A DNA stretch of 64,000 nt from Narcine bancroftii (lineage: Eukaryota). The position numbers were made by a program, and so were the translations under genes. The first letter of the stretch is position 1. Each line of letters starts with the position of its first letter. Positions 1 to 64,000 of this stretch are shown here, one piece after another. The notes beneath the pieces are model-generated. The model saw only the letters and a program-made list of their open reading frames with translations. It did not search any database and was not told where the DNA came from. The stretch covers positions 205,964,001-206,028,000 of the forward strand of contig NC_091473.1 of NCBI RefSeq assembly GCF_036971445.1. Reading direction: 5' to 3'.

Positions 1-700
1 CACATATTGTGAATTAAACTTAATCCACTTTTCAACTGCCCACCAGCCCAAACGTACAAGATGAAATCTTTCACAAAGGTCCTCACAATCTAAAATTACA
101 GACACTTCAGTTTCATCTGGAAATTTGATAATACAGTTTCAATTAAATGATTGATGTAGATGATAAACAAAAATGAGCCGTGCACACTAGCAAATATACA
201 AATTACGTCACCTGTGAGCTATTAGCCAATTACATACTGGAGAAACACCACTTCGCAGAAAGAGAAAATTGCTCAGACATATCAGGGACTGGAATATATT
301 ACAAAGAATCACGTCTCTCCCATTGGGTCTGGCGGTAAACATCGTGCTGAAACTGTGATCCTTACTAATAATGTCAAGGCTCCACATTGGTTTTCTCCAA
401 AATGCCCCCTGTGGGACCCTTAGTTTTGTTTCACTTCTGGATACGGAAATATCTGCGATTTGTTGCACGAGCATATGGTGATAACTCATTGTCGCAGAAT
501 CATTTAAGCTGATGCTAGTGGAATAATGAAATGTAAAAATGAACTGCAGTTTCCCATCAGTATTTAATGACAAGACTGTTATATGTTACATTTGGTGAAC
601 TGAAGAATAGTCAAAATATCTTCTTCAGGTATTGAGTAATGTATTGGAAGAGCGATCACGATTCTCTAGTCCTGAGTTCAGCTGAGTTCAGTTTATTCCT
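1..700 (-). mobile_element. Old degenerate CR1-like RT fragment (paralogous to ~49770-50450 and ~54600-55300)
   Basis: Antisense similarity by eye to the KFADDTK/SGVPQG region of the CR1 at 19.1-21.6 kb; collinear similarity to the two later copies. Confidence 0.45.
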
Positions 701-1041
701 TAAGCCATCTGTTTTCCTTGTATTTGATGCCGAAGTGTTTGTGTGTGTGCCATGATGCAGGGAAGCAGCGGATCTAACCATAGACTAATACCCGGTAGTT
801 CAAGCGAGCAGTGACCAAAAATGACACATCCTGGGGTAAAAACTGACGATGGTGAACAATTTTCATCTGCTTATACCTAATTGAACATGGAATTTCATAG
901 TTGGGGGCATGGCAAGATGGCGTAGAGTCGAGACTTGTAATCTCGACCTCTCTGGCCGAACTTTTATGTACCCGTTTTTTAACTCTTTGTTTTCAAGTTT
1001 AAACTTTTTAAAATTTTAGCTAAAAGTATTCAGGAACTATT

Positions 1042-2478
1042 ATGGCCATTAATGGTAAAAATAATTATACTTCAAGTGCAGAAGAAGTTACATTTTCGAA
1101 GTGGTGAAGATTTGGGGCCTTAACGACATGTTACAGCTTCAGGATTAATTTCCGTAGTGTCTAAATCACAAAGACTGCCTGTGGGAGCTGACAAAAATGT
1201 CTACTACTCACCATGTGAGGGATGGCTCTGGAATTACCCGTTCCCTGGAAGAAGGTGCATGTTCCCAAGAAGTGGATCCCGATTCTGGAAGCCTTTAGAT
1301 TTTAACGGAGGTAGCACACAGGAAGACGACTCAATTGTTTGAAATGCATCAGGAAGCATTTCAACCTGAAGATATCGCTTTCCTCCGTACTTTTGCGCAA
1401 AAACAACGAGCTGCGGGGGGAGACCAGCGGCGTCCCCCTGAGGAAGTCGGGGTGCCGTCGCTGGGAGTCCAGAACCGCAGTAAAACCTCTAAATTGGCTT
1501 TTGTCGTGTTGCAGCAGGAGCTGCAGTTACCTGGTTCTGCCACTACGTCAGAGAAAGCAGGGCGGAGCTTTTCTGACTTACAATGTATGCAGTTGAATGC
1601 TGTCATTCAACCTTTAATCAATGAGATGTCTCAAATGACTGCTAGTATAAGTTCAGAATTGAATACAGTTAAAGCACATATTATGAAGAATTTAAAACAT
1701 TTCAGACTGCTTTTTTGGACTGTAAACAGCAAGTGGTTTCTAACACAGAAAAAATGTTAAAGTTTGAAAAATCAGTTACAAATTGGGAGAATGCGAGAAG
1801 GAGTTAGAGAGGAAAATAGACTACGTGGAGAATGAGCAGAAGGAATAATGTGAAATTCGTTGGTTTGCCAGAGGTATGGAAGGACAAGATCCTCTTCGTT
1901 TTTTTAAAGATTGTATCCCACTAGTACTAGGGCAAGAATTTTTATCTGGAGGCTTGGTACTGGAAAGAGGTCAAAGAGCTTTAAGAAGAACAACTTTACC
2001 TGGTCAACCACTGAGACCTGTAATAATTCATTGTTTGCATTATTTGGACAGAGAAGCAATACTTCGACTACCAGTGCAAAATACGAGACAATGACAAACT
2101 CCGTTATTTATTCAGAATAGCAGAGGTTTTTTTAATACTGATTTGAGTCAAGAGGTCACTCAACGTCAACGTCGATTTAATCCAGTTAAAGAAGTTTTGT
2201 GGCATCAAGGTTATAAGTCTACTTTTCACTACCCGGCAGTGTTGAAGGTATTTTATGGAGACCATCATTGTCGGTTTTTTGAGAATGATCGTGAAGCAAT
2301 GATTTTTGCTGATTCTTTGCCATATATGAGGACAAAGTCGTAGTCAACCATTGTCACCTAAAGAAAAAATCTGGTTGTCTGGGAAACGGAAGAAATAGCA
2401 GAAATGGGAAAAACTGGAATGGAAAGAGTCCAACTTCTTCTGAAATGGGATGTCCGAGATTGGAATCTCTTGGATGAC
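1042..2478 (+). pseudogene. L1 ORF1p (RNA-binding, Transposase_22-type), disrupted
   Basis: Fragments RRNNVKFVGLPEG/MEGQDP..LERGQRALR..RPVIIHCLHYLDREAILR and SQEVTQRQRRFNPVKEVLW..YPAVLKV; homologous to ORF 62883-63800. Ends approximate. Confidence 0.85.
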
Positions 2479-2797
2479 TAGAAGATTTTTTAAATTCTTA
2501 TTTTACTTTTTATGTTATTATGATATTTTTATGTTATTCATTGTTTGACTGGGGAGGGAGATATTTGCTCTAAGTTCTTTACCAGTCATCAGCCACTGGT
2601 GGGTGACCCACACCCAATTTTTATTTAGGGATTACTAACTTTTAGTAGTGTTTTTTGGGGGAGAATTCTTTTAAATTTTTTTTATTTTCATTTTCGTTAG
2701 CTTTTAACATGTGATTTTTTTCCTATTGGATGGCCTTTATACGTTGATTTGAATTTTCATGTAAAGATATTATTGGTATTTATTAATAATAGTAGAT

Positions 2798-5700
2798 ATG
2801 TCAAAGTTGAGGTTTGCTACTTTTAATGTTCGAGGTTTAAACAGTCCGATCAAGCATAAGCGAGTCTTGGCATATACTAAAAGATGAAAATTGATGTTGC
2901 TTTTATCAAGAAACATATTTGAATGTCAAGGAATGTATGAAATTAAAGAGGGACTGGGTTGTGCATGTATATTCTTCTTTACTTAATTCCAGGGCTGGAG
3001 GTGTTGCAATTTTGACACATAAAAAATTATCTTTTGAATTACAATCAATGGAGGAAAAGGCAGGATGTATTCTTAAATTGAATTGTAAGATTTGTTGTGA
3101 GTTTTGGACTTTACGTAATATTTATACCCCAGATGTAGATGATGAAATATTTATTTCAGGTGCATTTTTATATTTGGGTCAGGCTAATGATAATATTTTA
3201 GTTGGTGATGATTTTAATTGTGGTTTGGAACCTTTATGAGATAAATCTCCGAAGAAATCTAAGAAATGTAAGATGACAGTTCAGGTTCAAGGTTTGATGA
3301 AAGATCTTAATTTAGTAGATATTTGGAGATGTCTTAATCCGACGGAGAAAGATTTCTCCTTTTATTCATCAAGACATGAATCGTTTTCAAGGATTGACTT
3401 TTTTTAGTATCGGCACATTTACAAGGGAAAATACAACAAGTGGAATATAAAAGTAGGGTGATTTCAAATCATTCTTTGTTATACTTTACATATGCAACTT
3501 CTGAGAAAATTCAAGTGGCCTATCGTTGGAGGTTGTTGTTGAAAAATACGGAATTTATTGATCTTTTTGAAAAAACAATTTTTTTTAAAAGAAAATTCTT
3601 ATTCTGTTCAAAGTAAGATTGTATTATGGGATGCTATGAAAGCTCATTTGAGAGGACAAATAATTAGTTATACTTCTAAAATAAAAAAAATACTCTGATT
3701 AAATCAGAGTTTTGAATTAGAGAAACAGATTGAAGAGTTAGAAAAGGAATTTTAGAACGATGCTACAGAAGATCAGAAAATAGAATTATCTAGGTTGAAA
3801 TTGGAATATAATACTTTGCAATCTTATCAATTTGAATGTGTGATTAATAGGACTAAACAATGGTATTATTAATGGGTAAAGAAAACATACAAGGGATTGG
3901 CGTGGCAATTAAAGAAAGAACAGGTTTCGAGTACTATTAATGTTGATAAACGGAATTCTCTTATTACTTATAAACCTCGTGAGATTAATGATGAATTTTG
4001 TTCATTTTATAAAAAGTTATATACATCTGAAGAAAAACAAGGAACTGGATCGATGGATCTTGTTTTATCACAGTTGAATTTACCGATATTAGTGGATACA
4101 AATACACAAGAGTTGGAAGAACCATTTACTGATTCGGAAATTAAAATGGCAATGATGGGAATGCTGAATGGTAAATCGCCTGTTGATGATAGATTTTCGG
4201 TTGAATATTATAGAAATTTTTTATGATGATTCCTCTACAGTGTTTGGCGATGTATTACGTCAAGTTGGAGAACATTATGAATTACCTGAGTCTTGGTCTA
4301 GTGCTTTAATTATAGTAATCACAAAAGAGTTAGACATCCTTTGAAAGTATCTTCATATAGACCAATTTCGATGTTAAATGTAGATTATAAAATAATAGCT
4401 AAAATATTGGCGAATAGATTGACTAAATGTTTACATATGTTGATACATATGGATCAAAGAGGTTTTATAGAGAATAGATATGCTTCAGATAATATTATAC
4501 GCGTGATTAGTTTGAGGTATTGAGCGTGATTAGTTTGATTTCGATAATCTTAACATTACCCGATGGTGATACATTTAGATGCAGAAAAAAGCATTTGATA
4601 GAGTTGAGTGGAAGTTTTTGTTTAAAGTTCAGGAGAAATTTAAGTTTGGTCCTTTCTTTATTGGTTGGATTAAGGCTTTATATAGTAAACCGGTAGCTAG
4701 AGTATTGACAAATGGCTTGAGTTTGGAACCTTTTAAATTCACTCGATCAACTCGTCAAGGTTGGCCTTTATCACCAGCTTTGTTTGCGTTAGTGATCAAA
4801 CCTTTAGCACAGCTGATAAGACAAAATAGACAGATACAAGGTATGAAAGTTTTAGATGAGGAGTATGAAATTAATTTATTTGATGATTATTTATTCGTGT
4901 ATTTAACATACCCAGCTCAGTCACTTTTGCACTTGAAGGAATGTTTAATACAATATGGATGTCATTCTGGATATAAAGTTAATTAGGAAAAAAGTGAAAT
5001 ATTACCAGTAAGTGAACGAGATTAATCAGTTTATAAGAATATTATTAAGTTGAAATGGACTGATCGAATTAAATATTTGGTAATAATTTTGAATGTTAAT
5101 TATCAATTTTTATATAAATTAAATTATGTTCCATTAATTAAAAAAATTAAAACTGATTTGATTAAATGGAAAGATTTACCTATTAATTTATGGGGTAAGA
5201 TAAATACAATTAAGATGTATATTTTTCCACGTATGCAATATTTGTTTCAATTTATTCCGTATTTACTTGATAATACATTTTTCGAGATTTGAATAAAATG
5301 GTTAGCGAGTTTTTATGGAGAGGTACATTTTTCAGAGTAGCTTTGAAGAAATTAACTTGGAAATATGAGTTTGGGGGATTACGTTTACCACATTTTCAAA
5401 ATTATGATGAAGCAGCCCAACTTAAATTTATTCGTTCATTGATGGATTTGGAACGGCCTCCTAGTTGGGCTAAAATTGAGATGGCAAATATTTCTGAATT
5501 TGAAATACATTAATTTTTGTTTGGATGGAATATAAATTTGTTACAGCAACATAATGTGCCTATACTAAAACATTTAATGAAGTTATTGATAAAGAAAAAT
5601 AAAATTACAGGCTCTAGGGGTGAATTATCGTCTTTGGCTCCATTGTATAATAATCAATTTATTTCATTTTCAATACACAATCGAAGTTTATTGCATTGGA

Positions 5701-6565
5701 GATTTAAAGGTGTGGAAACTTGGGAGATTGTTTTAAAGAGGGTAATTTTTTAAATCTTTTATTCAGATGAGGGACAATTTTGGTATTTATAAGAACTCTT
5801 TGTTTCTTTATTATCAAATATAATCTTTGGTACAACGTACGTTTGGTAGAGATATGATTGTATCTGAAATGCCTAAATTTGAGACTTTTCGTATGAAGGC
5901 ACCAAAGAAGGGTTATATTTCATCTATGTATCAAATATTACACTATGGTATGCATAAAAATGGTTGGGATAGATCTAAATGTAAATGGGAAGCAAATAGT
6001 GGTTTTATTTTTTCTGAGTATGATTGATTAGATATCTGTTATGATAGTCTAACTAGATTTTTAAATGCACGTTATGCAACGATTAACTCTAATTTTTTTT
6101 ACATCAATAATATCTAACACCTTAAAAATTACAAAAGTATGGTTTTCATGAATCAGATTTGTGTTTTAGATGTGGTAATTTTGTTGGAACTTTTTTCATG
6201 CTGTTTGGTCATGTATACATATACAATCTTTTTGGAAGAATATTCAATTGTCATTAGAATACCTTTATAAGATTAAAATACCTTTAGATCCGACAGTATT
6301 TTTATTGGGTAGTTTGCAGCCTCTGAAAGGTTTGGAATTAGATAAGTTTCAACTTGCTTTTGTATATTTAGCTTTATCTGTAGCGAAAAAATGTATTGCT
6401 AGTACGTGGAAAGATACAAATATGATTGATATTAATAGATGCCATAATGAGATGAAATATTGTTTACTAATGGAAAGAATTACATATGTTTCGTGTGATA
6501 ATTATAGTTTTTTTATTAAAAAGTGGTTATTATTCTCAGAATCTTTACATTTCAATTTATATTGA
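2798..6565 (+). pseudogene. L1 ORF2p (APE endonuclease + reverse transcriptase + C-terminal Cys-rich domain), many stops/frameshifts
   Basis: MSKLRFATFNVRGLN start; NIYTP, GDDFN, YRPISMLNVDYKIIAKILANRL, KAFDRVEW, TRQGWPLSPALF, LFDDY, CFRC motifs. Confidence 0.92.
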
Positions 6566-7004
6566 TTAGATCTTAATATGTATGTTTAACTTTTCTTTAA
6601 TATGTTTTCTTTTTTCTTTCTTTATGGCTCTCCTTTATGAATAAAAAATAACGTTCATTTTTATGGTAAATTGTCGTATATGTTATGTACTATTTGTTTT
6701 TGAACGAATAAATAAAGTTAAAAAAAAGAATTTCATCGTTTTTCACGTCCACTTGGTTTTAAAATCAGGAGAAGATATTCTTTGATTCAATCAATCCTAT
6801 TCTGTAGCCGATAAATGATTGACAATGCAAGGGATATTTTGGAATACGACGGATATTGTACCTATTGTGCATTACGGAGGAGGTGTTAGTGTTGGGTGCG
6901 TGATCTGACGGCAATTAAGAAAAGAGAAAAGAGGAGTGAATGCCCAATCGACATCTAAATGCAACAGATTAAATCCAGTGATCTTTTATTTCAGATTAGA
7001 TACA

Positions 7005-10000: not shown

Positions 10001-10459
10001 CTGGCTTCATCCCCATTCATTTGTTTGCTGATTCTGTGGGGCGTTCGATTTGGCGAGCCTCTGACCTATTGTTCAGCGCGTGCCCCTACCGGCTCAGCGC
10101 AATTCCTCGCATATCCTGTACTGCGTGCAACGTTCCAGGAACAAATGGGTAAATGTAATAATACATGCAAATGGCTGCAGGATGCCAAGCAGTGTCACTG
10201 ACACGAGTTATTCGAGAAGTGTTACCTTATATTATTGGGACGTTAAAATTCCCGTGGATTGTGAAATTTTGGATATAATATCCTATTCGATGTGCTTCGG
10301 TCTCACGATCGTCCGGACACGATGACGGTTACTTTGGAGAAAAGGGTCCCGATATTACACCTCAATATCTCGAAAGCTCTTGAACTGGACTTGGCCTTGT
10401 ATCTCTGCGCGGTGGGCCTCACACTGTTTTTTTGTAAATTGCGGAGATGCTCAAAAGCT
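10001..10459 (+). pseudogene. TCR V pseudogene, cassette unit 1 'V-A', with RSS
   Basis: Decayed leader (..FICLLILWGVRF-G, GCGAG donor), TTCCAG acceptor at 10138, SYSRSVTLYYW, LHLNISKALELDLALYLCAVG; RSS CACACTG (10420)-24 nt-TCAAAAGCT. Confidence 0.8.
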
Positions 10460-10863
10460 GATTCTGAAATCGGATGTGGTTTGAAACAAAAGGGGAGAAA
10501 GAGGGCGGGAGATCCCGTTAGGGATTGCAAAAGGCTGAGCATGAGTAAATGATAGATAGAACGAGCTAGAGGAATAAAATGAAAGAAGGGGAGAGAGGAA
10601 GCGAGGGAGGAGATAAAACGACGGAAGACACGGGGAGTTTACAAATAGAGGGAGAAACTATGAAAGAAGGCCAGTGCGATCCAGACTGCCTTCACATCTC
10701 TATCTGATTTGTTCACGAATTATATCATCAACCAATCCTATGTAAAGGAAACTCATTCATATCTGCCCCAGATTGTTAGTTCACTCATAACATCGACCGA
10801 CACGTACTCTGCATTCAGCTGTAAAACAGGAAAATCTTTGCTTTTGACCTTAATCCGCATATC

Positions 10864-10909
10864 ATGGGTGTTCTGTGTTGTTTGCCGATTCTTTGCGTCG
10901 TTTTGACTG
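10864..10909 (+). CDS. Distal V leader exon (unit 1), intact, phase-compatible with acceptor at 11296
   Basis: ATG..MGVLCCLPILCVVLT-G, 46 nt, GTAAGC donor. Confidence 0.75.
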
Positions 10910-11244
10910 GTAAGCCTGTCCGATTGGTCACCGAACTCTGTCCATTCCCCGTACTCGACGTGTCTTCAACTTTAACATAAGTAAAGTTAGATGATTTCCC
11001 CAAGAATCAAACTCCTTGGCTGTCCCTCCGTTTACTCGTTTACTCGTTCACTGTCTACTTACTGATCAACACCGCGCGTCCCCCATCCCCTTTCTCTCTA
11101 TCTATGTCGCTCCTTGCCGTTCGAATGAGAGAGAAACAAACCCGGTCTTGAATAGAGGATTTTTCAGCATCCAACGTTAGCTTGCGACCTTGTGTCGGGT
11201 GAGGATTTGGAAAATTTCTTTCTTCCGAATTTAGGCCGGAAATC

Positions 11245-11596
11245 ATGTTCCTCCTGAAGATTGGGCAGATTCTATGGGCCGTTCTGTTTGTTCCAGGGGC
11301 GAGTGCGAATGATTCAGTAACCCAAAGACCGCCGCAAATGATCGTCGATGAAGGGCAGATTGTGGAACTGAACTGTAGTTATTCGATGAGTCCCTACACT
11401 TACATTTGGTACATTCAACATCCCGGAGAATCACCAAAATATTTGCTGAAAATCCAGACGTCAGGACAGGTGGTTCCTTCTCGCGATTGTCCTGAGAGGA
11501 TATCGGGTTCCTTAGAGAAAACGAGCCAGAGATTCCACCTAATATCTCACAAATCCGCGTGGAGGATTCCGCCGTGTATCTCTGCGCCGTGCAGAT
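11245..11596 (+). pseudogene. TRAV/TRDV: TCR alpha/delta-type V segment (unit 1 'V-B'), near-intact, one 1-bp frameshift at ~11540
   Basis: NDSVTQRPPQMIVDEGQIVELNCSYS..YIWYIQHPGESPKYLL..ERISGSLEKTSQRFHL / (shifted frame) NISQIRVEDSAVYLCAVQ; both canonical Cys and the Trp present; followed by a 23-RSS. Confidence 0.92.
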
Positions 11597-11635
11597 CACG
11601 CTGATCCAGGGCGGCGCGGGATCTGCACAAAAACT
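11597..11635 (+). promoter_or_regulatory. Recombination signal sequence, 23-bp spacer
   Basis: CACGCTG (11597-11603) + 23 nt + ACAAAAACT (11627-11635) directly after YLCAVQ. Confidence 0.92.
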
Positions 11636-11949
11636 CACCTCGAGATTTTTCATCGCTCACGGTGGTTAGAGGGCGCTCTCGGTCTCCGGAAGACAGTTCT
11701 GTCAGTCAGATTAATGGAAGGGTGAAGTCAACGCCGAGGTTCTGGTGATTTTCCCAACTCTTGCGTTTATTTTTCTCTTCATCCGTTTCGTTTCTTTGAC
11801 GTTGAAGGTAGGATGTCAGGGAGGGAGAAAAAGTGAATTGCTGCTTCCGAGAATATATTGGGAAAAGGGAAGTTGTGTTTTTGTTATGCAAATTTAGAGA
11901 TGGATAAAGGCGGCGTGGGTAGGGCAGGAGCGTGGCTCCACAATCATGA

Positions 11950-12370
11950 GTACATATGGCATAGAGTAGGGGACAAAGCAGGCAAACCTGGAGTGATGCC
12001 GTGTTTCTGCTCAGCGTAGAGGAGGTGATGTTGCGGATCAGCACTTTTGGGGTCTTCCAATGAAGAAGTCACATATCCAGTCACAGAAGGCTGGACAAAG
12101 TCCCGGATCTTTTAGATTGGTCATCGGCTTTGCAAGTGTGAGGGTGTTGAACGCCAAACATTAGTCCATGAACAGCAAACCCACGAAGGTGTTTCGGCGG
12201 TCTCGGTGATTTAATACGTAGTGGACTGTCAACGATAGGGCGGTCGTCAGTTGTGCCCACGGGCGATGGACGAATTGAAGTGTGTCCAGTTCCTTCCCGT
12301 GATTGGTGATAATGCGCTCGATATACAACCGGGCAAAACATTTCCTCCAAGTCATTTAACTTGCTCCTGT
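11950..12370 (-). mobile_element. Rex1/Babar-like LINE RT fragment
   Basis: LDTLQFVHRP..ALSLTVHYVLNH..FVGLLFMD; homologous to the element at 59290. Confidence 0.7.
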
Positions 12371-12409
12371 TGTGAAAGACAAGGAGAGGACAGTGGAAGC
12401 AAAAGCTCA

Positions 12410-12500
12410 TCGAAATGCTGGAGCAACACAGCCGGTGTCGGAGATCCCAAAAGGAGGGAAAATACCTAACCGACGTTTCGGGTCTGAGCCCATCTTCAAT
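12410..12500 (-). repeat. Penelope-type short interspersed repeat with hammerhead-like core
   Basis: Minus strand reads TTGAAGA-T-GGG-CTCAGA-CCC-GAAA-C-GTCG-GTT; related copies at ~28650 and 36781-36930. Confidence 0.5.
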
Positions 12501-12689
12501 TAATAAGAGAATCTCAAGAAGGTGTTCAACTAAAGACTGCAGACTGACAGGGCTTGGGGGAAAGGGTCTTCGAGAACGACAGTTGCTAATTGGTTATGGA
12601 AGATAAAGAGGTGGGAATTGATTTGTTTCTGTCAAGGCAGTCGGGGAATTTCGCATAGACAGAAACACAGAACGAGAGACAGGGATAGA

Positions 12690-12719
12690 TGAGAGAGAGA
12701 TTTTGAGTAAGAGAGAGAG

Positions 12720-12796
<77 letters not shown>
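12690..12796. repeat. (GA)n microsatellite
   Basis: Perfect run from ~12723 to 12796; explains the spurious SLSLSL ORF. Confidence 0.97.
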
Positions 12797-12798
<2 letters not shown>

Positions 12799-12844
12799 CG
12801 CGGGGAAATGCAACAGGAGGAAGAATTACCTGTTTAACTTTATC

Positions 12845-13201
12845 GTGACTTCCTTCCCTTTCAGTTGTTTTCTGATTCTGTGGACCGTCCTACTTGCGAA
12901 CCTCTGATTGATTGGTCAGCTCATGTCTCTCCCGGCTCAGCGCAATTTATCGCATAGTTCATGCACTGCGAGATATGTTCAGGCACAAATTGAAATATCG
13001 TGGCCCATATATTAAATGGTTAAAAATAATAACCTAGACGATGTGGGTCCGCCTTGAATTGTCCGGACAAGATGACTTTGGATAAAAGGTTCCGGATATT
13101 ACACCTGAATACCTCGAAAACTGTTGAAGTGGACGTAGCCGTGTATCTCAGCGTGGTGTGGCTCATGCTGTTGCATGGAAATTGCGGGAGGCACAAAAAT
13201 T
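12845..13201 (+). pseudogene. TCR V pseudogene, unit 2 'V-A', internally deleted
   Basis: Paralog of 10001-10459; leader starts GTG; ILHLNTSKTVEVDVAVYLSVV; RSS CATGCTG (13164)-22 nt-ACAAAAATT. Confidence 0.75.
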
Positions 13202-13590
13202 GATTCTGAAATCGGATGTGGTTTGAAATCAAACGCGAGAAAGAAGATGCAAGAGCACGTTTGGGATTGCTTAATGTTAAACAGGTGAAAATGTGAGACA
13301 GTGTTAGCGTCAAGTATAGAACGAAAGAAGGAGAGAGGGGGCGAGGGAGGAGATAACAAAGGGTAGATGCGGGGAGTGTACAGATAGAGGGTTCGTGAAG
13401 CGAGGGGAACACGATGAAAAGTTTCTTCACGAACGCGATCTTATTGGTTTAATAATGGCCACACCAACCAATCCTGTATGAAGGAAGCACTCTCATATCT
13501 GTCCCAACTGGTAGACCGCTCATAACATCGCCCACCAATTGTACTAGGTAACATAAGGAAATATTCGCTGATGATCTTAATCCACATACC

Positions 13591-13637
13591 ATGATCTTCT
13601 TGAGTGGTTTGGTGATTTTTTTGGGCCGTTCTGACTG
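13591..13637 (+). pseudogene. Distal V leader exon (unit 2), +1 frameshift in a T run
   Basis: ATGATCTTCTTGAGTGGTTTGGTGATT..GCCGTTCTGACTG followed by GTGAGT; 47 nt instead of 46. Confidence 0.7.
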
Positions 13638-13958
13638 GTGAGTCTGTCGGACTGGTCAGTGAACTCTGCCAGTGTTCTTTCTCCACGAATCTCTTGCTTT
13701 AACCTAATTAAAAACAGACAATTTCCCCAAATTCTTTCGTTATCCCTTGCACGTTCTTCCTCCACTTATTAATTTACCCAGTATTTGTGTTTACTGAACT
13801 TCCTCGCAGTTTCACTCTCGCTCTCCATCACCCCTCTCTAGCTCTTCCCCGTTTTCGTGAGAAGGAAACCGCCACACAAACAGAGTTTCTGCTGCATCCG
13901 ACATTGGTATGGTTGAGGATTTGTAAAATATCCTTCTTCCGAATTTAGACTGGGCATC

Positions 13959-14398
13959 ATGTTCCTACTGATTTGATGGCTGATTCTATGCACCGTTCCG
14001 AATGTTGAGACTAACTCGTGCCGCGCGGGTTCAGTGCCATCCAGCGACGTTCACTCATTTTGTTTTGTTCCAGGGGCGAGGGCGAAGGATTCAGTGACAC
14101 AAAGACGGCCGCAAATGACAGTGCATGAAGGGCAGATCGTATCAATGAGCTGTAGTTACTTGATTAGCCCCGACACTGATTTTTGGTACATTCAAAATCC
14201 CGGAGATTCTCCAAATTATTTGGTGACAATCTACACTTCCTGAGTCGTGGTTCAGTCTCACGATTGTCCTGAGAGAATATCGCATTCTTTGGTGAAAAAG
14301 AAAATTAAATCCCACCTCTACATCTCTGAAAGCCTTATGGAGGATTCCGTACTGTATCTCACGCAGCTGCAGGGCAGTGGCAGATCCACATAAAAAAA
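13959..14398 (+). pseudogene. TRAV/TRDV: TCR V pseudogene, unit 2 'V-B' (proximal leader 13959-14004; V exon from 14074) with RSS
   Basis: KDSVTQRRPQMTVHEGQIVSMSCSY..FWYIQNPGDSPNYLV..*..EDSVLYL; stop in leader and donor mutated to TTGAGA; second Cys deleted; CACGCAG (14360)-23 nt-ATAAAAAAA. Confidence 0.88.
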
Positions 14399-14463
14399 AC
14401 GAACCTCATGGAATTTAATCAGCGCAATTCCTCACATATAATAAACTGCGTGCCTCTTTCCAG

Positions 14464-14771
14464 GAACAAATGGGGAACTATAGTGACACACGGACACGGC
14501 CGCGGGAAGGAAAGCAGTGTCATTGACTTTAGTGACTCGACAAATGTTACCTTATATTTTTGGTAGTTAAAATGCCCGTTCACCGTTAAAAAAATGGATA
14601 TAACATCCTAGTCGATGTGGGTCCGTGTCACGGTTGCCCGGACAGGATGACGGTTACTTTGGAAAAGGGGCAGGATATTCCACCTCAAAGATGTTGCACC
14701 GGCTTGGCCGTGTATCTCTGCACGATGCGGCTAACACTGTTCTTTGGAAAAAGGGGTGACGCACGAAAGCT
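14464..14771 (+). pseudogene. TCR V pseudogene, unit 3 'V-A' (no leader; duplication starts inside the intron at ~14419)
   Basis: TTTCCAG acceptor, GTNG.., GCPDRMTVTLEK, LAVYLCTMR; RSS AACACTG (14733)-23 nt-ACGAAAGCT. Confidence 0.75.
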
Positions 14772-15149
14772 GATTCTGAAATCGGATGTGGGTGGAATCA
14801 AACCCGAGACAGAGGAGGCGAGAGCGGGTTAGAGACTTCTTATGGTTGAGCAGCTGAAAATATTAGATAAAATTAGCTAGAGGAATAGAATGAAAGAAGG
14901 GGAGAGAGGGAGCGAGGAAGGAGATTACAAAAGAGGTGAGACTCGGGGAGTGTACAGGAAGAAAATGAATCCTTGGTGAAAGAAGGAGAACGCGATGCAG
15001 ACTGTCTTCTCAACGCCATCTGATTGGTTGATGAATGATATGATCAACCAATGCTGTGTGAAGGAAACATTCATATCTGCCCCAGGTGTTAGTCGCTCTT
15101 GACATCGTCGCAACGTTTGTTCTGCGGTAATTATCTTAATCCACATACC

Positions 15150-15195
15150 ATGATCTTCCTGAGTGGTTTGGTGATTCCTTGGTCCGTTCTGACCT
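15150..15195 (+). CDS. Distal V leader exon (unit 3); the partner V is not seen after the gap
   Basis: MIFLSGLVIPWSVLT + 1 nt, 46 nt, GTGAGT donor. Confidence 0.7.
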
Positions 15196-18203: not shown

Positions 18204-18596
18204 ATGTGTCCTGTTGCTTGATTCATGTTCTCTTCTGTATAAGTCTGGACATTGTCGAGGCAACGCTGTTTCGCAGACACCAATTGTGACCACAGTGACT
18301 GAAGGAGACGATTCTCAACTGAATTGTAACAATACAACAACAAACATAAGTACTCCAAGATTAATCTGACACCGTATGTATCGCGGCCAGTCACTGTACG
18401 TTTTGATGGTCATAACGCAAAATAACGGCAAGATAAATAGAAAAAAATCCCCGAAAACTTTTCTCGGCGGTGCTTGATATTTCGAAGCGCACGGTTCCAC
18501 TGTATGTTTCTGAAACATAGCTGGAAGATACGGCCATGTATTATTGTGCTGTGATCCCACAGAGGTACGGAACAGGGGTGAGACTACAAATGTAAC
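18204..18596 (+). pseudogene. TRAV/TRDV: TCR V pseudogene of a distinct family, with RSS
   Basis: HCRG-NAVSQTPIVTTVTEGDDSQLNC..RLI*HRMYRGQSL../FSAVLDISKRTVPLYVSET*LEDTAMYYCAVI; heptamer CACAGAG at 18558, decayed nonamer; two stops and a frameshift. Confidence 0.88.
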
Positions 18597-35372: not shown

Positions 35373-35637
35373 GACGTTGGCAATGATCCACTGCCTTACA
35401 GACACCTCAGATGAGATCCGAAGAAGGGCAAACCATAAAACTGCACTGCAATTACCCTCCTACCTTGATAGTCCACACCAGTTAGTAGTACATCCTATAT
35501 CCTGAAGAATTATAGAGACATCTACTATCGAGCAGTCAGATCAATTCAGAGTCAGATAGTATTGATTTCTATTTGAAATAAACGTTACCAATATTTTTAT
35601 TATCTCTGACGCTGCTCTCTCCAACGATGCCACATTA
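35373..35637 (+). pseudogene. TCR V pseudogene (family of V at 7289)
   Basis: QMRSEEGQTIKLHCNYPP..**YILYPEEL*RHLL...IISDAALSNDA then heptamer-like CACATTA (35631); AVYxC region missing. Confidence 0.7.
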
Positions 35638-48063: not shown

Positions 48064-48270
48064 GTCGATTCTATTTCTCAATGTCCATTTGAGGTGTGCC
48101 TGCCTTCTCTTATATCCAGCATCCTGGAAATGCATCGAGATATTGAATAAAATAATAAGCACTGGGGTGAAGACCAACCTTTGAATTTCCGAGACCGGTT
48201 TTCTTCTGCTTATCAGAAAATAAGTTGGGCGGTTCCTTTTACTATCTCTGACGTCCTTTTCTGTTCGCCA
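48064..48270 (+). pseudogene. 3' part of the split TCR V
   Basis: DSISQCPFEV..YIQHPGNASRY..STG.ED..EFRDRFSSAYQKISWAVPFTISDV; collinear with V 51739; 3' end and RSS deleted. Confidence 0.8.
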
Positions 48271-51607: not shown

Positions 51608-52084
51608 ATGTTGCCTCTATGGTTCACGCTGATTATAACGTCCTTGTTCCCTGGTAAGTCCCTGTTGAAATGAAACTGTTGCGTCCTTTGACTGCGGTTC
51701 ACTTTCAAGCTTATCGAAGTCTCCATATTGTGTTGCAGGGGCCTTTGGCGACGAATCTACCTCCCAGTCTCCATTTGAGGTGTGGGTGGAGGAAGGATGA
51801 ACAGTAACGCTGAACTTCAGCTACCCCTCAAAATTCAATTAATACAATGCCTTTTGGTACATCCAGTATCCTGGATATGCGCCGACATATGTAGTAAATA
51901 TATTAAGCACTGGGTTCGAAGACAAGGCTTCAGAATTCCGCGATCAGTTTTCTGTTACTAATCAGAAAACAAGCCAAATGGTTCCTTTAACTATCTCTAG
52001 CGTCGTTGTCTCCGACTCAGCCGTGTGTCTCTGCGCAATATCGGCCACATTGTAGCATAAAGGCAGAAAATTCGTTAAATAGTG
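51608..52084 (+). pseudogene. TRAV/TRDV: TCR V pseudogene, full structure (leader 51608-51653; V exon 51739-52045; RSS 52046-52084)
   Basis: MLPLWFTLIITSLFP-G/GTAAGT..TTGCAG; AFG-DESTSQSPFEVWVEEG*TVTLNFSYP..*..FWYIQYPGYAPTYV..FRDQFS..MVPLTISSVVVSDSAVCLCAISA; no frameshift, two stops, first Cys to Phe; CACATTG-23 nt-decayed nonamer. Confidence 0.92.
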
Positions 52085-53875
52085 GTCGTGGTGCCATTAT
52101 CTCTGCTAACAAGCAGACGTGGTTTCTGACACATGCGTTTCTGTTGCACAAACAAAAGTGAAATAAACACCTCATAGAATTCAAAGGACCATGCATCTTC
52201 TATGAGGTCGAGTGTTTGTCTCTTGGGTCAGGAAGCTGCATCAACTTTCAGAATATGGAAGGGAGCGTGCCGACATGAAGAGGCGAAAAGATGGGATGGA
52301 CAGGCTAATTCAGGTTCTTGGATGCATCAGGCGAGGTGAATATGCGGACCGAAATTCACATCCAATGTGTTGCACACCTTAGTTCAACACACACGTTTGT
52401 ACAATGTAGTGTGCATTGTCCATAAGGTCCACTTCATCTTCCCCAGTAACTTTCTCGCCGAGTTGGGACATAAGGTTTTCTTCGAGAATTATCTAATAAG
52501 GGGAGAAAAAATCAGCCATCAAGAGCAACAAATGGCAGTTGTTTATGAGGTCGAGAAAGAGGCATGGAAGCAGATGGGGGACGACAGAGGTGAAAAAACA
52601 GTTAATGCACGTAAAGAAATAAAACATACAGAGACATAGTGCGTGGAAATAATCCATGCTTCTCAAATTATCCACGCCGTTCAAACTGTCCCACTCACAC
52701 AAATCCCACCTTCCAGTGTTTGACGGATATCCTCCTAATGCCAACCTTTTATCCGACTATTCTTCAGCTATATTGCTCTCGGATATACAACAATCACCAC
52801 CTCAGAAGCCTGTTTTAGACACCTTCCACACTTCTTCAATAACCAGTTACATCTCCCTTCCCTTACTTTAAACATGTGCTTACCAATTGGAACATCGAAT
52901 AACTGTTTGTGTCTACCCAGGTTGGGTCGGAGTTAAACGCCATTATGATCTTATTATCCTAATGAACATTTCAACGTTCCCCGTTGTGTTTATCCTTTAA
53001 TTACTCCTGTAGAAACCCTAGTTTTGTTTCACTTCCAGCTACTACAATTTTTGTGCTTTGTTGCACGAGCACTCTGCGAATATTCGATGTTCCAGAATTG
53101 TTTGAGCTGATGCGAGAAGAATAATGAGCTGTAACACTGAAGGGCAGTTACCTGGAGGCGGTCAGTGATGACACTGACATTTGATACATCCCATGATTCA
53201 AAGAATAGTTGAAATAGTTGAAAAGTCTTGTGAAGATATTCAGCACTGGATCGGCAGAGATATCTCTAGATTCTGGTACATTATTTGGACTAACCAAAGG
53301 GTTGAATGGCCATACTGGATCTCATTCAAGTGGCGGGCCTCTCGGTGGATGAGCACTTAGGTGAAAGTTGCCACAACTCCCTGAGCTTTAGCATAGTTAT
53401 GGGCAAAGATAACATCAGACAAAATGGAAAAGTGTTTAATTGGGTAAGGTTTAATTAGGTAGGGTTGCGACAGCAATTTGCGGAAGTAATTTGGATATAA
53501 ATGTTCAAAGGTGAAAGTGCAGAATTACTCATAAAAATTTCAGGATATGTTTAACCCAATGGGAGTAAATGTGAGTAAAAATGATCCGAGTTTGATTAAA
53601 TATGTGAGGTAGCTATTCAAGAGGAGGAAGGAACCAGGTATTAGATACAGGAATCACTCATGAGAAGTAGATGTTAGTCAGGAAGAATCTTAAGAAAATT
53701 GTTAGGAGAGGTCGAAGGGAGCATGAGAAGGCTATGGCATCAGGATTGAAGAGAACCCAAGGCGTTGTATGCGTACATGAAGCAAAGAAGGATGACGACA
53801 ATGAACGTGGGGGCCGTTAAAAGATAAAGGAGGCAAAATGTGCCTGGAGACGGAGGAACCCGAGAACGTCTTATA

Positions 53876-61017: not shown

Positions 61018-62204
61018 TTTAAAAAAAAAATTATTGGTTCAAAATACAGATAGTAAATATCATATACAACAATAAACCAAAAACATTAACGTTATATTTT
61101 ATAGAAAACAAACAAAAAAAAAAGAAAAAAAGAACCCACCTCCCCCTCGTCAGCCACCTCTCCTAAGGAGAGTAATAAGGAAAGAAAAAAATATTAAGGA
61201 AAAATTAAACATACATATTAAAATCTAATCAATATAAATCGAAATGTAAATATTCTATATATAACAACCACTTACTAATAAAAAAGCTATAGTTACCACG
61301 CGAAACATACATATTTTTTCCATTATTAAACAGCATGTCATTTCGTTATTCCATCTATTAATATCAATCATATTTGTATCTTTCCACATACTAACAATAT
61401 ATTAATCTCTACAAATAATGCTAAATATACAAAAGAAAGTTGAAATATATCTAAACCAAAACCATTCAGAGGTTGCAAACTCTCCAATAAAGATACTATC
61501 GGATCTAAAGGTATTTTAATCTTATACAAATTTGGATTTATCCCAACCCTTTTTATCCATACCATTCTATAAAATTTAATACATGAATAAAATATAAACC
61601 TTCTTTGGTACCTTCATAAAAAATGTCTCGAATTTAATAAGTTCAGATAAAATAATATCACTACCAAACACACATTTTATCAAAGATCATATTTAAAAAT
61701 AAAGAAACAAAGAATTCTTATTAATACCATAGCTCTCCCTCATCATTATGCGTAATCGAACCGTTTAAACCTCGAACATTAAAAGTAGCAAACCTCAACT
61801 TTAACATATCTGCTAACATTACTAAAGGCCAATAATATCTTTATATGAAAACTCAAATCATCCAATAGGAGAAAAAAATCACAAAGAAAAAGCTAGATAA
61901 AATAAAAAGAAAAAAACCAACAAACCCCCAATAGGAGAACAAAATCACAAAGAAAAAGCTAGATAAAATAAAAAGAAAAAAAACAACAAATCCCTACCCC
62001 CCCCCCCAAGAAAACTACCAAAAGGTAGTAATCCCTAAACAAAATGTGGGTGTGCATCACCCACCAGTGCCTGAAGACTAATAGAACCTAGAACAAATCT
62101 CTTCCACCCCAGCCGAACAAAAGAAATCTCAAAATTTCATAATAACATTTAAAAAAAAATAGGAATAAGAAGATTCTGCTATTCATTCAAGATGTTCCGA
62201 ACTC
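61018..62204 (-). mobile_element. Internally deleted L1 of the same family as 903-6727
   Basis: Reverse complement matches the 3' UTR/ORF2 end (KIKIPLDP), then jumps at ~61750 to the ORF2 start (LRFATFNVRGLN), the inter-ORF spacer and the ORF1 end; contains a ~66-bp tandem duplication at ~61862-61994. Confidence 0.85.
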
Positions 62205-64000
62205 GGGGGCGTGGCAAGATGGCGTAAGGAACAGACGTGCCTTCCAGTCCTCTCCAGACTCTAACTTATTGTTTTGTCTTTAAGTGCACCTTAAAAAATT
62301 TTTAAAATGTTTATAAATAGTATGAGGTGTTGAATTTATACCTGCTGATACATTTGTTAAAAGAAAGTAAAAGGAAACATCAACAGATTGTTAAAAAATT
62401 ATATTTTCTGAAATTATCTGAGCCTGCTTGTTTACAAAAAAACCACGACTCAGCGTGAAATGGATCCAGGAAAAGAAGCGAAGAATTTCGCCTTGGAGCT
62501 CCGCTCTGAATCCGTAAATCTTTCTGAAGGTCGTTTTCAAGAGCCTTTAGAACAAAGGGCTGGCCGGATGCCAGTATTTCAAACAACGTCTACTGTTACT
62601 GAGACTTTGACTGCTGAATTAGTTGGGGCGCCACCAGTTGGAGAGATAAAGAGTTGTTATTTGACTGCTATACCATCAGTTACAACAGCTCTTCCTGATA
62701 CTGACGTAACGAAGCCTTTAAAGGAGGTTTGAATCAAAGATAACCCTGATCATCAGATTCCTGACACTTCTGGGGGGTCTGAGGCAGGGGCTTTTACACG
62801 GAGTCAAACTGCAAGAAAAGCTACTAAATTAAAAGAAGGGATAGAAGGTCCTCTGATTCCACAAGAACAGCAGGATCCCACTATGTCTGGATCAACTGAT
62901 GTTGATATACTTTTCAAGAGTCTTGAACATAAGATATTTCCTTCAATGATGCATTTAGGTGATTCTGTGCATAATCTTATTTCTAAGATTAATGCATTGG
63001 TGGATGTCAATACTCAACAGATAGCTGATTATGGAGATTTTAAAATCGAAACTATTGAAAGACTTGAGATGTGGGATCAAGGATTATCTGATGTACAAGA
63101 TCAATTGCAAGATGTAAATAAAACAATTGAAACGCTACAGATTCCGAATAAAAATTTAGTAAAAAAGGTTGATTATTTGGAGAACCAATCTAGACAGAAT
63201 AATGTGAAAATTTTTGGCTTGCCAAAAGGCATAGAAGGGCCAGATCCAAGAAAATTTTTTACTGAATGGATTCCAAAAGTGTTGGGACAAGATAAGTTTC
63301 CTGAAGGTTTAATATTGGAACGGGCTCGTAGAGCTTTGAGAAGGAAACCTTTTTCAGGACAGAATCCAAGAACTGTTTTGGTTCGCTGTTTAAATTACCA
63401 TGATAGAGAGACTATTTTACGTATGGCTATTAGAAATGCACAGCAAAACAGATCTCCTTTGTTGGTTCAGAGTAATCGTGTTTTCTTCTATCCGGATTTG
63501 TGTCAGGAAATTATGTTTCAACGACGTGAACTTAATTCTGTGAAAGAAGTATTGTGGAAAAAAGGATATAAGGCAAGATTTAGATACACTGCGGTACTGA
63601 AGATTTTTCAGGATGGATATCAACCAAAGTTCTTCGACAATCCTAAAGAAGCAATGGACTTTTCTCAGTCTTTACCAATTACACAATTCCAGGAACAACG
63701 TAGACCTCCACGGTCTCCAAAGAGGGAAGAGCTGCAAGAAGGGTATCTGATTTCTGGAAGAAATGGAAGAAACGGTGGTTGCAATGGCAAAGTTGATTAA
63801 AAAAAATAGAAAAAAATATTTTTAATTATTTTTTGTTGAGAAGATTTTAAATAGTGATGGGAGTTTGGAGAGGGAACTGGGTGGGCACCAATTTCCAGAA
63901 GTCATCAGCTGCGTGCGAGCGACCTCACACCCAATATTTTGGGGGAGTTACCGCATTAGGTGGTTTAAACAGGAAGAGGTAATTGTGACCTCCGACCTCT
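62205..64000 (+). mobile_element. L1 5' end (5' UTR, ORF1, inter-ORF spacer), continues past the window
   Basis: GGGGGCGTGGCAAGATGGCG start; ORF1 with L1 RRM/CTD motifs. Confidence 0.92.
62883..63800 (+). CDS. L1 ORF1p C-terminal 305 aa (coiled coil-RRM-CTD); true start probably ~62348 but disrupted
   Basis: LENQSRQNNVKIFGLPKG..LERARRA..PRTVLVR..FFYPDL..YTAVLKI. Confidence 0.85.
   Translation: MSGSTDVDILFKSLEHKIFPSMMHLGDSVHNLISKINALVDVNTQQIADYGDFKIETIERLEMWDQGLSDVQDQLQDVNKTIETLQIPNKNLVKKVDYLENQSRQNNVKIFGLPKGIEGPDPRKFFTEWIPKVLGQDKFPEGLILERARRALRRKPFSGQNPRTVLVRCLNYHDRETILRMAIRNAQQNRSPLLVQSNRVFFYPDLCQEIMFQRRELNSVKEVLWKKGYKARFRYTAVLKIFQDGYQPKFFDNPKEAMDFSQSLPITQFQEQRRPPRSPKREELQEGYLISGRNGRNGGCNGKVD

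What the first reader, a model, noticed from the sequence alone, without database searches (positions are those of the whole stretch)
10864..15195. V genes with two tandem leader exons, repeated across duplicated cassettes
Seen: both visible 'V-B' exons have a proximal leader (11245, 13959) and, ~370-380 bp upstream, a second 46-47 nt leader (10864, 13591); unit 3 has the same distal leader (15150) before the gap. Each distal leader has a CCAAT/GGAA block upstream. All three distal leaders keep ATG and the GT donor, in phase 1 with the V acceptor, while both visible proximal leaders have lost their donor. Known: TCR/Ig V genes normally have one leader exon. Inference: either a dual-promoter, alternative-signal-peptide V architecture, or an orphan leader left by deletion of an upstream V exon and then co-opted.
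Basis: partly seen in the sequence, partly recalled or inferred. Interest (0 to 1): 0.7.

Follow-up and report, generated by a model that had tools for sequence, protein, structure and literature searches.

The report
T-cell receptor genes with replaced leader
A large family of likely T-cell receptor alpha variable genes carries two signal-peptide exons; in the two RNA contigs that span them the upstream exon is spliced across the broken one next to the gene, so many genes that look broken are likely functional, although the copies in this window are themselves pseudogenes.

Summary
The two-leader layout is real and extends far beyond the window: 41 of 49 related V copies over 205.15-205.98 Mb of this contig have it. 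It does not look like a working dual-leader system. Among 18 copies with an intact V exon and RSS, the distal leader is intact in 17 and the proximal in 0; the proximal one is broken differently in each subfamily. A CCAAT box lies upstream of 18 of 18 distal and 0 of 18 proximal leaders. Two RNA contigs from one study splice the distal leader to V across the proximal one, including junction 10909>11297, but from paralogs. Three in-frame V-J joins show the family is rearranged. The window's copies are broken: unit 1 V is frameshifted, unit 2 has a 47-nt phase-2 leader plus a stop, unit 3 has no V. No V remnant lies between the leaders; origin by deletion of a neighbouring V or by tandem duplication is unresolved. 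It works like a hard-wired version of mouse TRBV12-2 leader to TRBV13-2 splicing. New variant of a known kind, modest interest.

The parts
10007..10459 (+). V-A1: decayed single-leader V pseudogene (no ATG, GC at the donor, stops) with an RSS-like site at 10420; a V-A copy precedes nearly every two-leader unit
10700..10863 (+). Distal promoter-like region of unit 1 (CCAAT 10732, GGAAAC 10747)
   Evidence: a paralog contig laid here begins at 10807; start site not mapped
10864..10909 (+). Distal leader exon, unit 1: 46 nt, phase 1, MGVLCCLPILCVVLT, donor GTAAGC; the leader type used in this family
   Evidence: joint 10909>11297 in run X3 from a paralog
10910..11296 (+). 387-nt leader intron (GT..AG) holding the promoter relic and the proximal leader relic
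11125..11244 (+). Truncated promoter relic: family consensus is homologous to the last 120 nt of the distal promoter, without CCAAT
   Evidence: z 4.7, 0 of 1000 shuffles; not found by local profile search (0 of 41)
11245..11296 (+). Proximal leader relic, unit 1: donor and most of its intron deleted, ATG in frame with V (the only such case among 41 copies)
11297..11596 (+). V-B1 exon (TRAV-like), pseudogene: one base missing near 11539, before Cys104
11597..11635 (+). 23-spacer RSS CACGCTG-23-ACAAAAACT
12851..13180 (+). V-A2: decayed V pseudogene (ends approximate)
13591..13637 (+). Distal leader exon, unit 2: 47 nt, phase 2, frameshifted; CCAAT at 13468
13959..14004 (+). Proximal leader relic, unit 2: in-frame TGA and donor GT>TT
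14074..14365 (+). V-B2 exon, pseudogene: TGA at 14241-14243, Cys104 codon and heptamer missing (all 15 two-leader B2 copies are broken); 3' end approximate
14419..14750 (+). V-A3: decayed V pseudogene without its leader, abutting the V-B2 3' end (ends approximate)
15150..15195 (+). Distal leader exon, unit 3: 46 nt, ATG and GT kept, CCAAT at 15048; orphan, no V follows

Best explanation
These are members of a likely TCR-alpha V gene clan in which the distal exon is spliced to the V exon as its leader, while the proximal exon is a broken relic, likely of the gene's earlier leader, left inside a lengthened intron of about 290-480 nt; the window's three units are themselves pseudogene copies. Mechanism: transcription likely starts at the CCAAT-containing promoter upstream of the distal exon (inferred), the distal GT donor joins the V acceptor (shown for two paralogs), and V joins a 12-RSS J in frame (shown on separate contigs). 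History (inferred): once, before the C, D, B1 and B2 subfamilies split, an upstream promoter plus leader came to lie about 380 nt ahead of the V gene's own leader, whose promoter lost its CCAAT part; the stranded leader then decayed independently in each subfamily. I favour a deletion that removed a V-A-like neighbour's V exon (about 55%) over tandem duplication of the leader (about 35%).
For: 41 of 49 related V copies have both leaders; in the 18 with intact V and RSS the distal leader is intact in 17 and the proximal in 0; over all 41, 35 against 1. Proximal lesions differ by subfamily: ATG>ATT (C), in-frame stop (D), GT>CT (B1), GT>TT or TG (B2), deletions. CCAAT at -150..-100: distal 36 of 41 (18 of 18 intact), proximal 1 of 41 (0 of 18), dead V-A 1 of 43. 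On a 34-nt block, identity between subfamilies is 0.67-0.82 for distal and 0.50-0.78 for proximal leaders. RNA contigs: distal-to-V joints with GT..AG ends in X2 (L025 6457>6746, subfamily C) and X3 (L025 8605>9059; window 10909>11297), both across the proximal exon; the X3 contig matches 4 of 4 diagnostic bases of two intact B1 copies and 0 of 4 of window unit 1. Three loose ends read in frame into J-like sequence (frames read by hand), one traced to a 12-RSS J at C11:207.08 Mb. For deletion: the distal promoter is closer to the V-A promoter (z 7.8-8.8) than to the proximal relic (z 3.3-4.7); about 190 nt of spacer does not match the distal far-upstream region (z 1.0); read-through splicing from one V region into the next V acceptor occurs here (joint 7247>9059).
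Against: The RNA support is 2 contigs in 2 of 3 runs from one study, at word depth 3.3 and 6.0; the tool only guesses the runs are RNA, and contigs drop rare forms, so minor proximal use is not excluded. No single contig carries leader, V and J. Copies are not independent: about nine come from one 10-kb cassette and two are near-identical, so the independent sample is about 4-6 lineages. Distal leaders are also intact in 18 of 23 broken copies, so intactness partly reflects recent duplication. In 7 of 8 intact C copies the proximal exon keeps its donor, an open hydrophobic frame and an in-frame ATG 105 nt upstream. Origin is unresolved: no V remnant, a three-way polytomy of leaders, and a tandem duplication would also leave the native promoter upstream and the native intron downstream, as seen. 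The constant gene was not found.
Confidence: 0.82

Rival explanations
1. Working dual-promoter, dual-leader V genes: each leader is a usable first exon giving an alternative signal peptide.
For: Both exons are homologous 46-nt leaders; the proximal one keeps a 120-nt promoter homolog. C and D keep the proximal donor; 7 of 8 intact C copies have an in-frame ATG at -105. Window unit 1 has the proximal ATG fused in frame to V.
Against: The proximal leader fails ATG, stop, donor or frame in 18 of 18 intact V copies; CCAAT in 0 of 18; both leader-V contigs join across it. The fusion is out of frame in the nearest paralog 205534337 (53 nt) and sits on a frameshifted V in the window. The -105 ATG is shared by near-identical recent copies and absent in the diverged intact C copy 205797063.
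Confidence: 0.07
2. Same present-day function, but the second leader arose by local tandem duplication of promoter plus leader within one V gene rather than by capture from a neighbouring gene. This differs from the best explanation only in origin; the confidence is its share of that question.
For: No V remnant in 41 spacers, while the same profile detects 22 of 22 decayed V-A exons. Distal intron homology stops about 24 nt after the donor, while the proximal intron matches the V-A intron in 20 of 39 copies. The proximal upstream region is homologous to the distal promoter.
Against: About 190 nt of the spacer matches neither the distal far-upstream region nor the introns. The distal leader and promoter are at least as close to V-A as to the proximal leader.
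Confidence: 0.35
3. A neutral by-product of pseudogene decay: orphan leaders beside dead V genes, with no function.
For: True of this window: all three units are broken; 23 of 41 two-leader copies are broken; about 11 further distal-type promoters lack a proximal-leader-plus-V partner.
Against: 17 copies have an intact distal leader, V and RSS; spliced and V-J-joined contigs exist for subfamilies C and B1.
Confidence: 0.06
4. Assembly artefact.
For: The region is repetitive, with near-identical cassettes.
Against: The layout occurs in four subfamilies whose V exons are about 60-70% identical in protein, with diverged spacers, and RNA contigs skip introns of the lengths the assembly predicts.
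Confidence: 0.01

Closest known systems
Mouse TRBV12-2 leader (L-PART1) spliced to the TRBV13-2 V exon (bioRxiv 10.64898/2026.01.30.702900, passages read: 46,029 of 69,248 transcripts first annotated TRBV13-2). Chou et al. 1987, PMC304569, seen only as a reference title; the link to this event is recalled.
   Same: An upstream leader exon is spliced to a downstream V exon, passing over that V's own leader, and gives productive chains.
   Different: In mouse the upstream leader belongs to a complete gene and the downstream leader still works, so it is alternative splicing. Here no V lies between the leaders, the downstream leader is broken in every intact copy, and the layout is fixed in a whole clan of likely TRAV genes.
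Conventional TRAV/TRDV gene (promoter, one leader exon, short intron, V exon, 23-RSS), as in this locus's other families and catfish TRAV with 40-43 nt leader exons (PMC8656973, passages read)
   Same: The spliced product is ordinary: 46-nt phase-1 leader, V exon with Cys23, Trp41 and Cys104, 23-RSS, joined to a 12-RSS J.
   Different: Leader intron about 290-480 nt instead of about 85, containing a dead leader and a promoter relic.
Leader-only or V remnants in fish TRA/D loci (PMC8656973, passages read)
   Same: Scattered 5' or 3' remnants of V genes; unit 3 is one.
   Different: Here one remnant-like exon is the one in use, and the relic is the one next to V.
Shark NAR-TCR (PMC6795676, passages read; that its supporting V-delta lacks a leader is recalled, not read)
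   Same: A V exon whose 5' partner exon is not the adjacent one.
   Different: NAR-TCR adds an extra rearranged V domain; no D, J or second intact V lies upstream here.

Membership tests
TRAV gene (TCR alpha V) | V exon with Cys23, Trp41, Cys104 and similarity to TCR-alpha V | tested here: met
   Most natural-chain PDB hits are TCR alpha; motifs present in 18 paralogs; the window copies lack a readable Cys104
TRAV gene (TCR alpha V) | 23-spacer RSS after V | tested here: met
   CACGCTG-23-ACAAAAACT at 11597; the B1 copies at 205.16-205.24 Mb have 22-nt spacers
TRAV gene (TCR alpha V) | Direct joining to a 12-RSS J in a J cluster | tested here: met
   A loose end maps to a 12-RSS J at C11:207.08 Mb with a second J 1.2 kb away
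TRAV gene (TCR alpha V) | Splicing to TRAC rather than TRDC | tested here: inconclusive
   A PF09291 search returned one hit on another contig that did not translate as an Ig-type exon; the constant gene was not located
Functional V gene (window copies) | Open leader plus V frame through Cys104 with an RSS | tested here: not met
   Unit 1 frameshift; unit 2 phase-2 leader, stop and lost heptamer; unit 3 no V
Dual-promoter alternative-leader gene | Both first exons have a start codon, open frame and donor | tested here: not met
   Proximal usable in 0 of 18 intact copies
Dual-promoter alternative-leader gene | Transcripts from both first exons | tested here: inconclusive
   2 distal joints and 0 proximal joints in 3 contig sets; contigs drop rare forms
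Dual-promoter alternative-leader gene | Two mapped transcription start sites | not testable with these tools
   Only contigs were available, no raw reads or 5' RACE
TRBV12-2/TRBV13-2-type leader borrowing | Upstream leader spliced to a downstream V over its own leader | tested here: met
TRBV12-2/TRBV13-2-type leader borrowing | The upstream leader belongs to a separate, complete V gene | tested here: not met
   No V exon or remnant in 41 spacers; works like it, is not a member
NAR-TCR double-V receptor | Upstream V-D-J unit spliced to a second V | tested here: not met
   The upstream V-A is decayed; no reverse-strand RSS near the units
Signal peptide | Predicted cleavable signal peptide | tested here: inconclusive
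   No predictor available; best 8-residue hydropathy 2.5-3.3 for distal, 1.1-2.5 for B1 and D proximal, 2.9-3.6 for C proximal

The most novel reading that the evidence does not exclude
A live two-leader system persists in subfamily C: besides the normal distal-leader chain, transcripts from inside the spacer use the in-frame ATG 105 nt upstream of the proximal exon and its intact donor (7 of 8 intact copies) to give the same V domain a 35-residue longer, signal-anchor-like N-terminus, a second route to express one TCR V gene.
Probability: 0.07. Interest if true: 0.7.

Novelty: new variant of a known kind. Interest (0 to 1): 0.42.

Why it matters
In the 1.04 Mb examined, 17 of the 25 V genes that look intact (17 two-leader, 8 conventional) depend on a leader that is not the nearest one. 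An annotation that takes the nearest leader would call all 17 pseudogenes and undercount the repertoire by about two thirds. The clan also looks like an evolutionary end point of leader borrowing known from mouse TRBV12-2/13-2: the upstream leader became the only one and the other decayed separately in four subfamilies. The protein made is an ordinary V domain, so no new receptor type is implied.

Tried and rejected
V remnant between leaders: three V-exon DNA profiles gave 0, 0 and 1 sub-threshold hit on 41 spacers; the X and Y profiles found 22 of 22 and 18 of 22 decayed V-A exons as controls. An acceptor-like CTCGCAG at 13803-13809 first suggested the deleted V's acceptor; it reads CAG in 6 B2 copies and CGG in 9, so it was not counted. 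The local profile test of promoter homology was negative (0 of 41); the end-anchored consensus test was positive; the V-A comparison was mis-anchored and redone. A spacer match to the post-RSS flank (z 4.7, one of 14 tests) is CT-rich, shifts position between alignments and has no profile hit: inconclusive. No contig covered the proximal exons; lack of cover was not used as evidence. No holder is on record as RNA. A 99-base stretch of an X3 contig is identical only to window unit 1 among fetched copies; it may be an allele of a paralog, so expression of unit 1 is not claimed. The intact/broken label was faulty and was replaced. Protein homolog searches found nothing at E 1e-10, so there is no cross-species test; no related genomes are held. 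The constant gene search failed. The Pfam scan returned an error and was not repeated. Literature: 8 searches, listings only, showed no V family with a fixed dead second leader; the library lacks most subscription journals, PMC304569 was not held, and supplements were not read. No earlier scan findings near this place.
Full report
Observation. The window lies at G000:C11:205964001-206028000 of a 3.3-Gb genome. The five leader-type exons are at the stated places. The distal exons at 10864 and 15150 are 46 nt (phase 1); the one at 13591 is 47 nt (phase 2), so the claim that all three are in phase with V is wrong for unit 2. The proximal exon of unit 1 lost its donor through a deletion of about 71 nt that leaves its ATG in frame with V; that of unit 2 has a TGA and GT>TT. 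V-B1 lacks one base near 11539. V-B2 has a stop at 14241 and has lost Cys104 and its heptamer. Unit 3 has no V. The window therefore holds three non-functional copies.

What the genes are. V-B1 matches TCR alpha chains among solved structures and has a 23-RSS. A V-J loose end from RNA contigs maps to a 12-RSS J 1.1 Mb downstream, with a second J 1.2 kb further. The constant gene was not found, so 'alpha' is likely, not proven.

Extent. I fetched 1,037,119 called bases: 205.10-206.09 Mb continuous plus five 10-kb pieces to 206.41 Mb. They hold 212 V-like clusters, mostly decayed. Of these, 49 belong to the V-B clan (at least 54% identity to a seed and at least 200 nt), in subfamilies C, D, B1 and B2. 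Forty-one carry both leaders. The 8 left out of the counts have no detectable leader (6) or only the proximal one (2), and all 8 have broken V exons. Other families shown have one leader and an intron of about 85 nt.

Which leader is kept. 'Intact' means AG acceptor, Cys23, Trp41, open frame to Cys104 and an RSS within four mismatches. In 18 intact copies (9 B1, 8 C, 1 D) the distal leader passes ATG, frame, stop and donor tests in 17 and the proximal in 0; in 23 broken copies the numbers are 18 and 1, the one being window unit 1. Proximal lesions differ: ATG>ATT in C, a stop in D, GT>CT in B1, GT>TT or TG in B2, and private deletions. CCAAT lies at -150..-100 of 36 of 41 distal leaders (18 of 18 intact), 1 of 41 proximal and 1 of 43 V-A leaders. 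These copies are not independent; about nine derive from one 10-kb cassette, so the real sample is 4-6 lineages.

RNA. Three runs of one study, guessed to be RNA, hold part of an intact C plus B1 pair. Laid on L025, X2 joins 6457>6746 (C) and X3 joins 8605>9059 (B1), both GT..AG and both across the proximal exon. Three loose ends continue V in frame into J-like sequence (CAVSGASRGLIFG, CAVELRYGNEIRF, CAVKLRYPGGIDKL; read by hand). Both B1 V-J contigs carry the base that unit 1 lacks. Limits: two contigs, one study, no raw reads, no single leader-V-J contig, no start sites.

Origin. Distal, proximal and V-A leaders each form one group on a 34-column tree with weak support (93/81, 71/58, 88/62) and no resolved order; this is compatible with one origin before the subfamilies split. 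No V remnant lies in the spacers. The spacer reads as about 24 nt of leader intron, about 190 nt of unassigned CT-rich sequence, and 120 nt homologous to the 3' part of the distal promoter (z 4.7, 0 of 1000 shuffles), ending just short of CCAAT. The distal promoter is closer to that of V-A (z 7.8-8.8). This leans to a deletion that removed a V-A-like neighbour's exon and brought its promoter and leader next to a gene whose own promoter was cut. A tandem duplication also leaves the native promoter upstream and the native intron downstream, and is not excluded. Read-through transcripts that splice into a downstream V acceptor exist here (7247>9059 in X1 and X3), which makes capture plausible but does not show it.

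Against my reading. In 7 of 8 intact C copies the proximal exon keeps a donor, a hydrophobic open frame and an in-frame ATG at -105. Unit 1 has an in-frame intronless proximal leader. Both could give minor products. Against them: the C copies are near-identical, the diverged C copy lacks that ATG, and the fusion is out of frame in the nearest paralog.

Comparison with what is known. Mouse TRBV12-2 leader spliced to the TRBV13-2 exon accounts for 46,029 of 69,248 such transcripts (bioRxiv 10.64898/2026.01.30.702900, passages). This locus works like it but is not a member: there is no intact upstream V and the bypassed leader is dead. Remnant V pieces are common in fish TRA/D loci (PMC8656973, passages). 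Other papers seen: PMC8740489 and PMC6825295 (passages, nothing bearing), PMC6795676 (passages), PMC2189544 (abstract and references). Eight searches listed no description of a V clan with a fixed dead second leader; coverage of subscription journals is poor and supplements were not read. No relatives could be tested.

Verdict. Real feature, partly misdescribed. One working upstream leader and one relic (about 0.82); dual use about 0.07. New variant of a known kind; interest 0.42, mainly for annotation of this locus and for V-gene evolution.

Noticed in passing
L025:6960-7247 joined to 9059: Unrearranged read-through contigs run from the V-C exon through its RSS to a cryptic donor about 200 nt past the heptamer and splice to the next V (B1) acceptor, in X1 and X3. 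The donor is present in 7 C copies. V-C's frame stops inside the RSS, so the product is likely non-coding.
   Followed up: partly
G000:C11:205.15-205.24 Mb (L021-L030): About nine tandem copies of a roughly 10-kb cassette (C, V-A, B1, V-A, B2, V-A); its B1 copies have 22-nt RSS spacers.
   Followed up: partly
window 14345-14390 and B2 paralogs: B2 copies share loss of the Cys104 codon and heptamer, so the subfamily was amplified after it died.
   Followed up: partly
window 51609-52085: A conventional single-leader V pseudogene (stops) of another family with a degenerate RSS at 52046.
   Followed up: no
window 488-754, 18265-18559, 35387-35578, 48093-48261: Further decayed V-like segments in the window.
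   Followed up: no
G000:C11:205243392-205243681 and 205814202-205814494 (minus strand): Inverted copies of the distal leader and part of its intron next to orphan distal leaders.
   Followed up: no
window 12458-12499: A short stretch matches high-depth contigs in all three runs, with unrelated flanks; probably a fragment of an expressed repeat.
   Followed up: no
window 2454-6613 and 61181-62206: Long inverted repeat arms at 76-88% identity, probably two copies of an interspersed repeat.
   Followed up: no
G000:C11:205785437-205792994: A D-type two-leader gene is split by an insertion of about 6 kb just before the proximal ATG.
   Followed up: no
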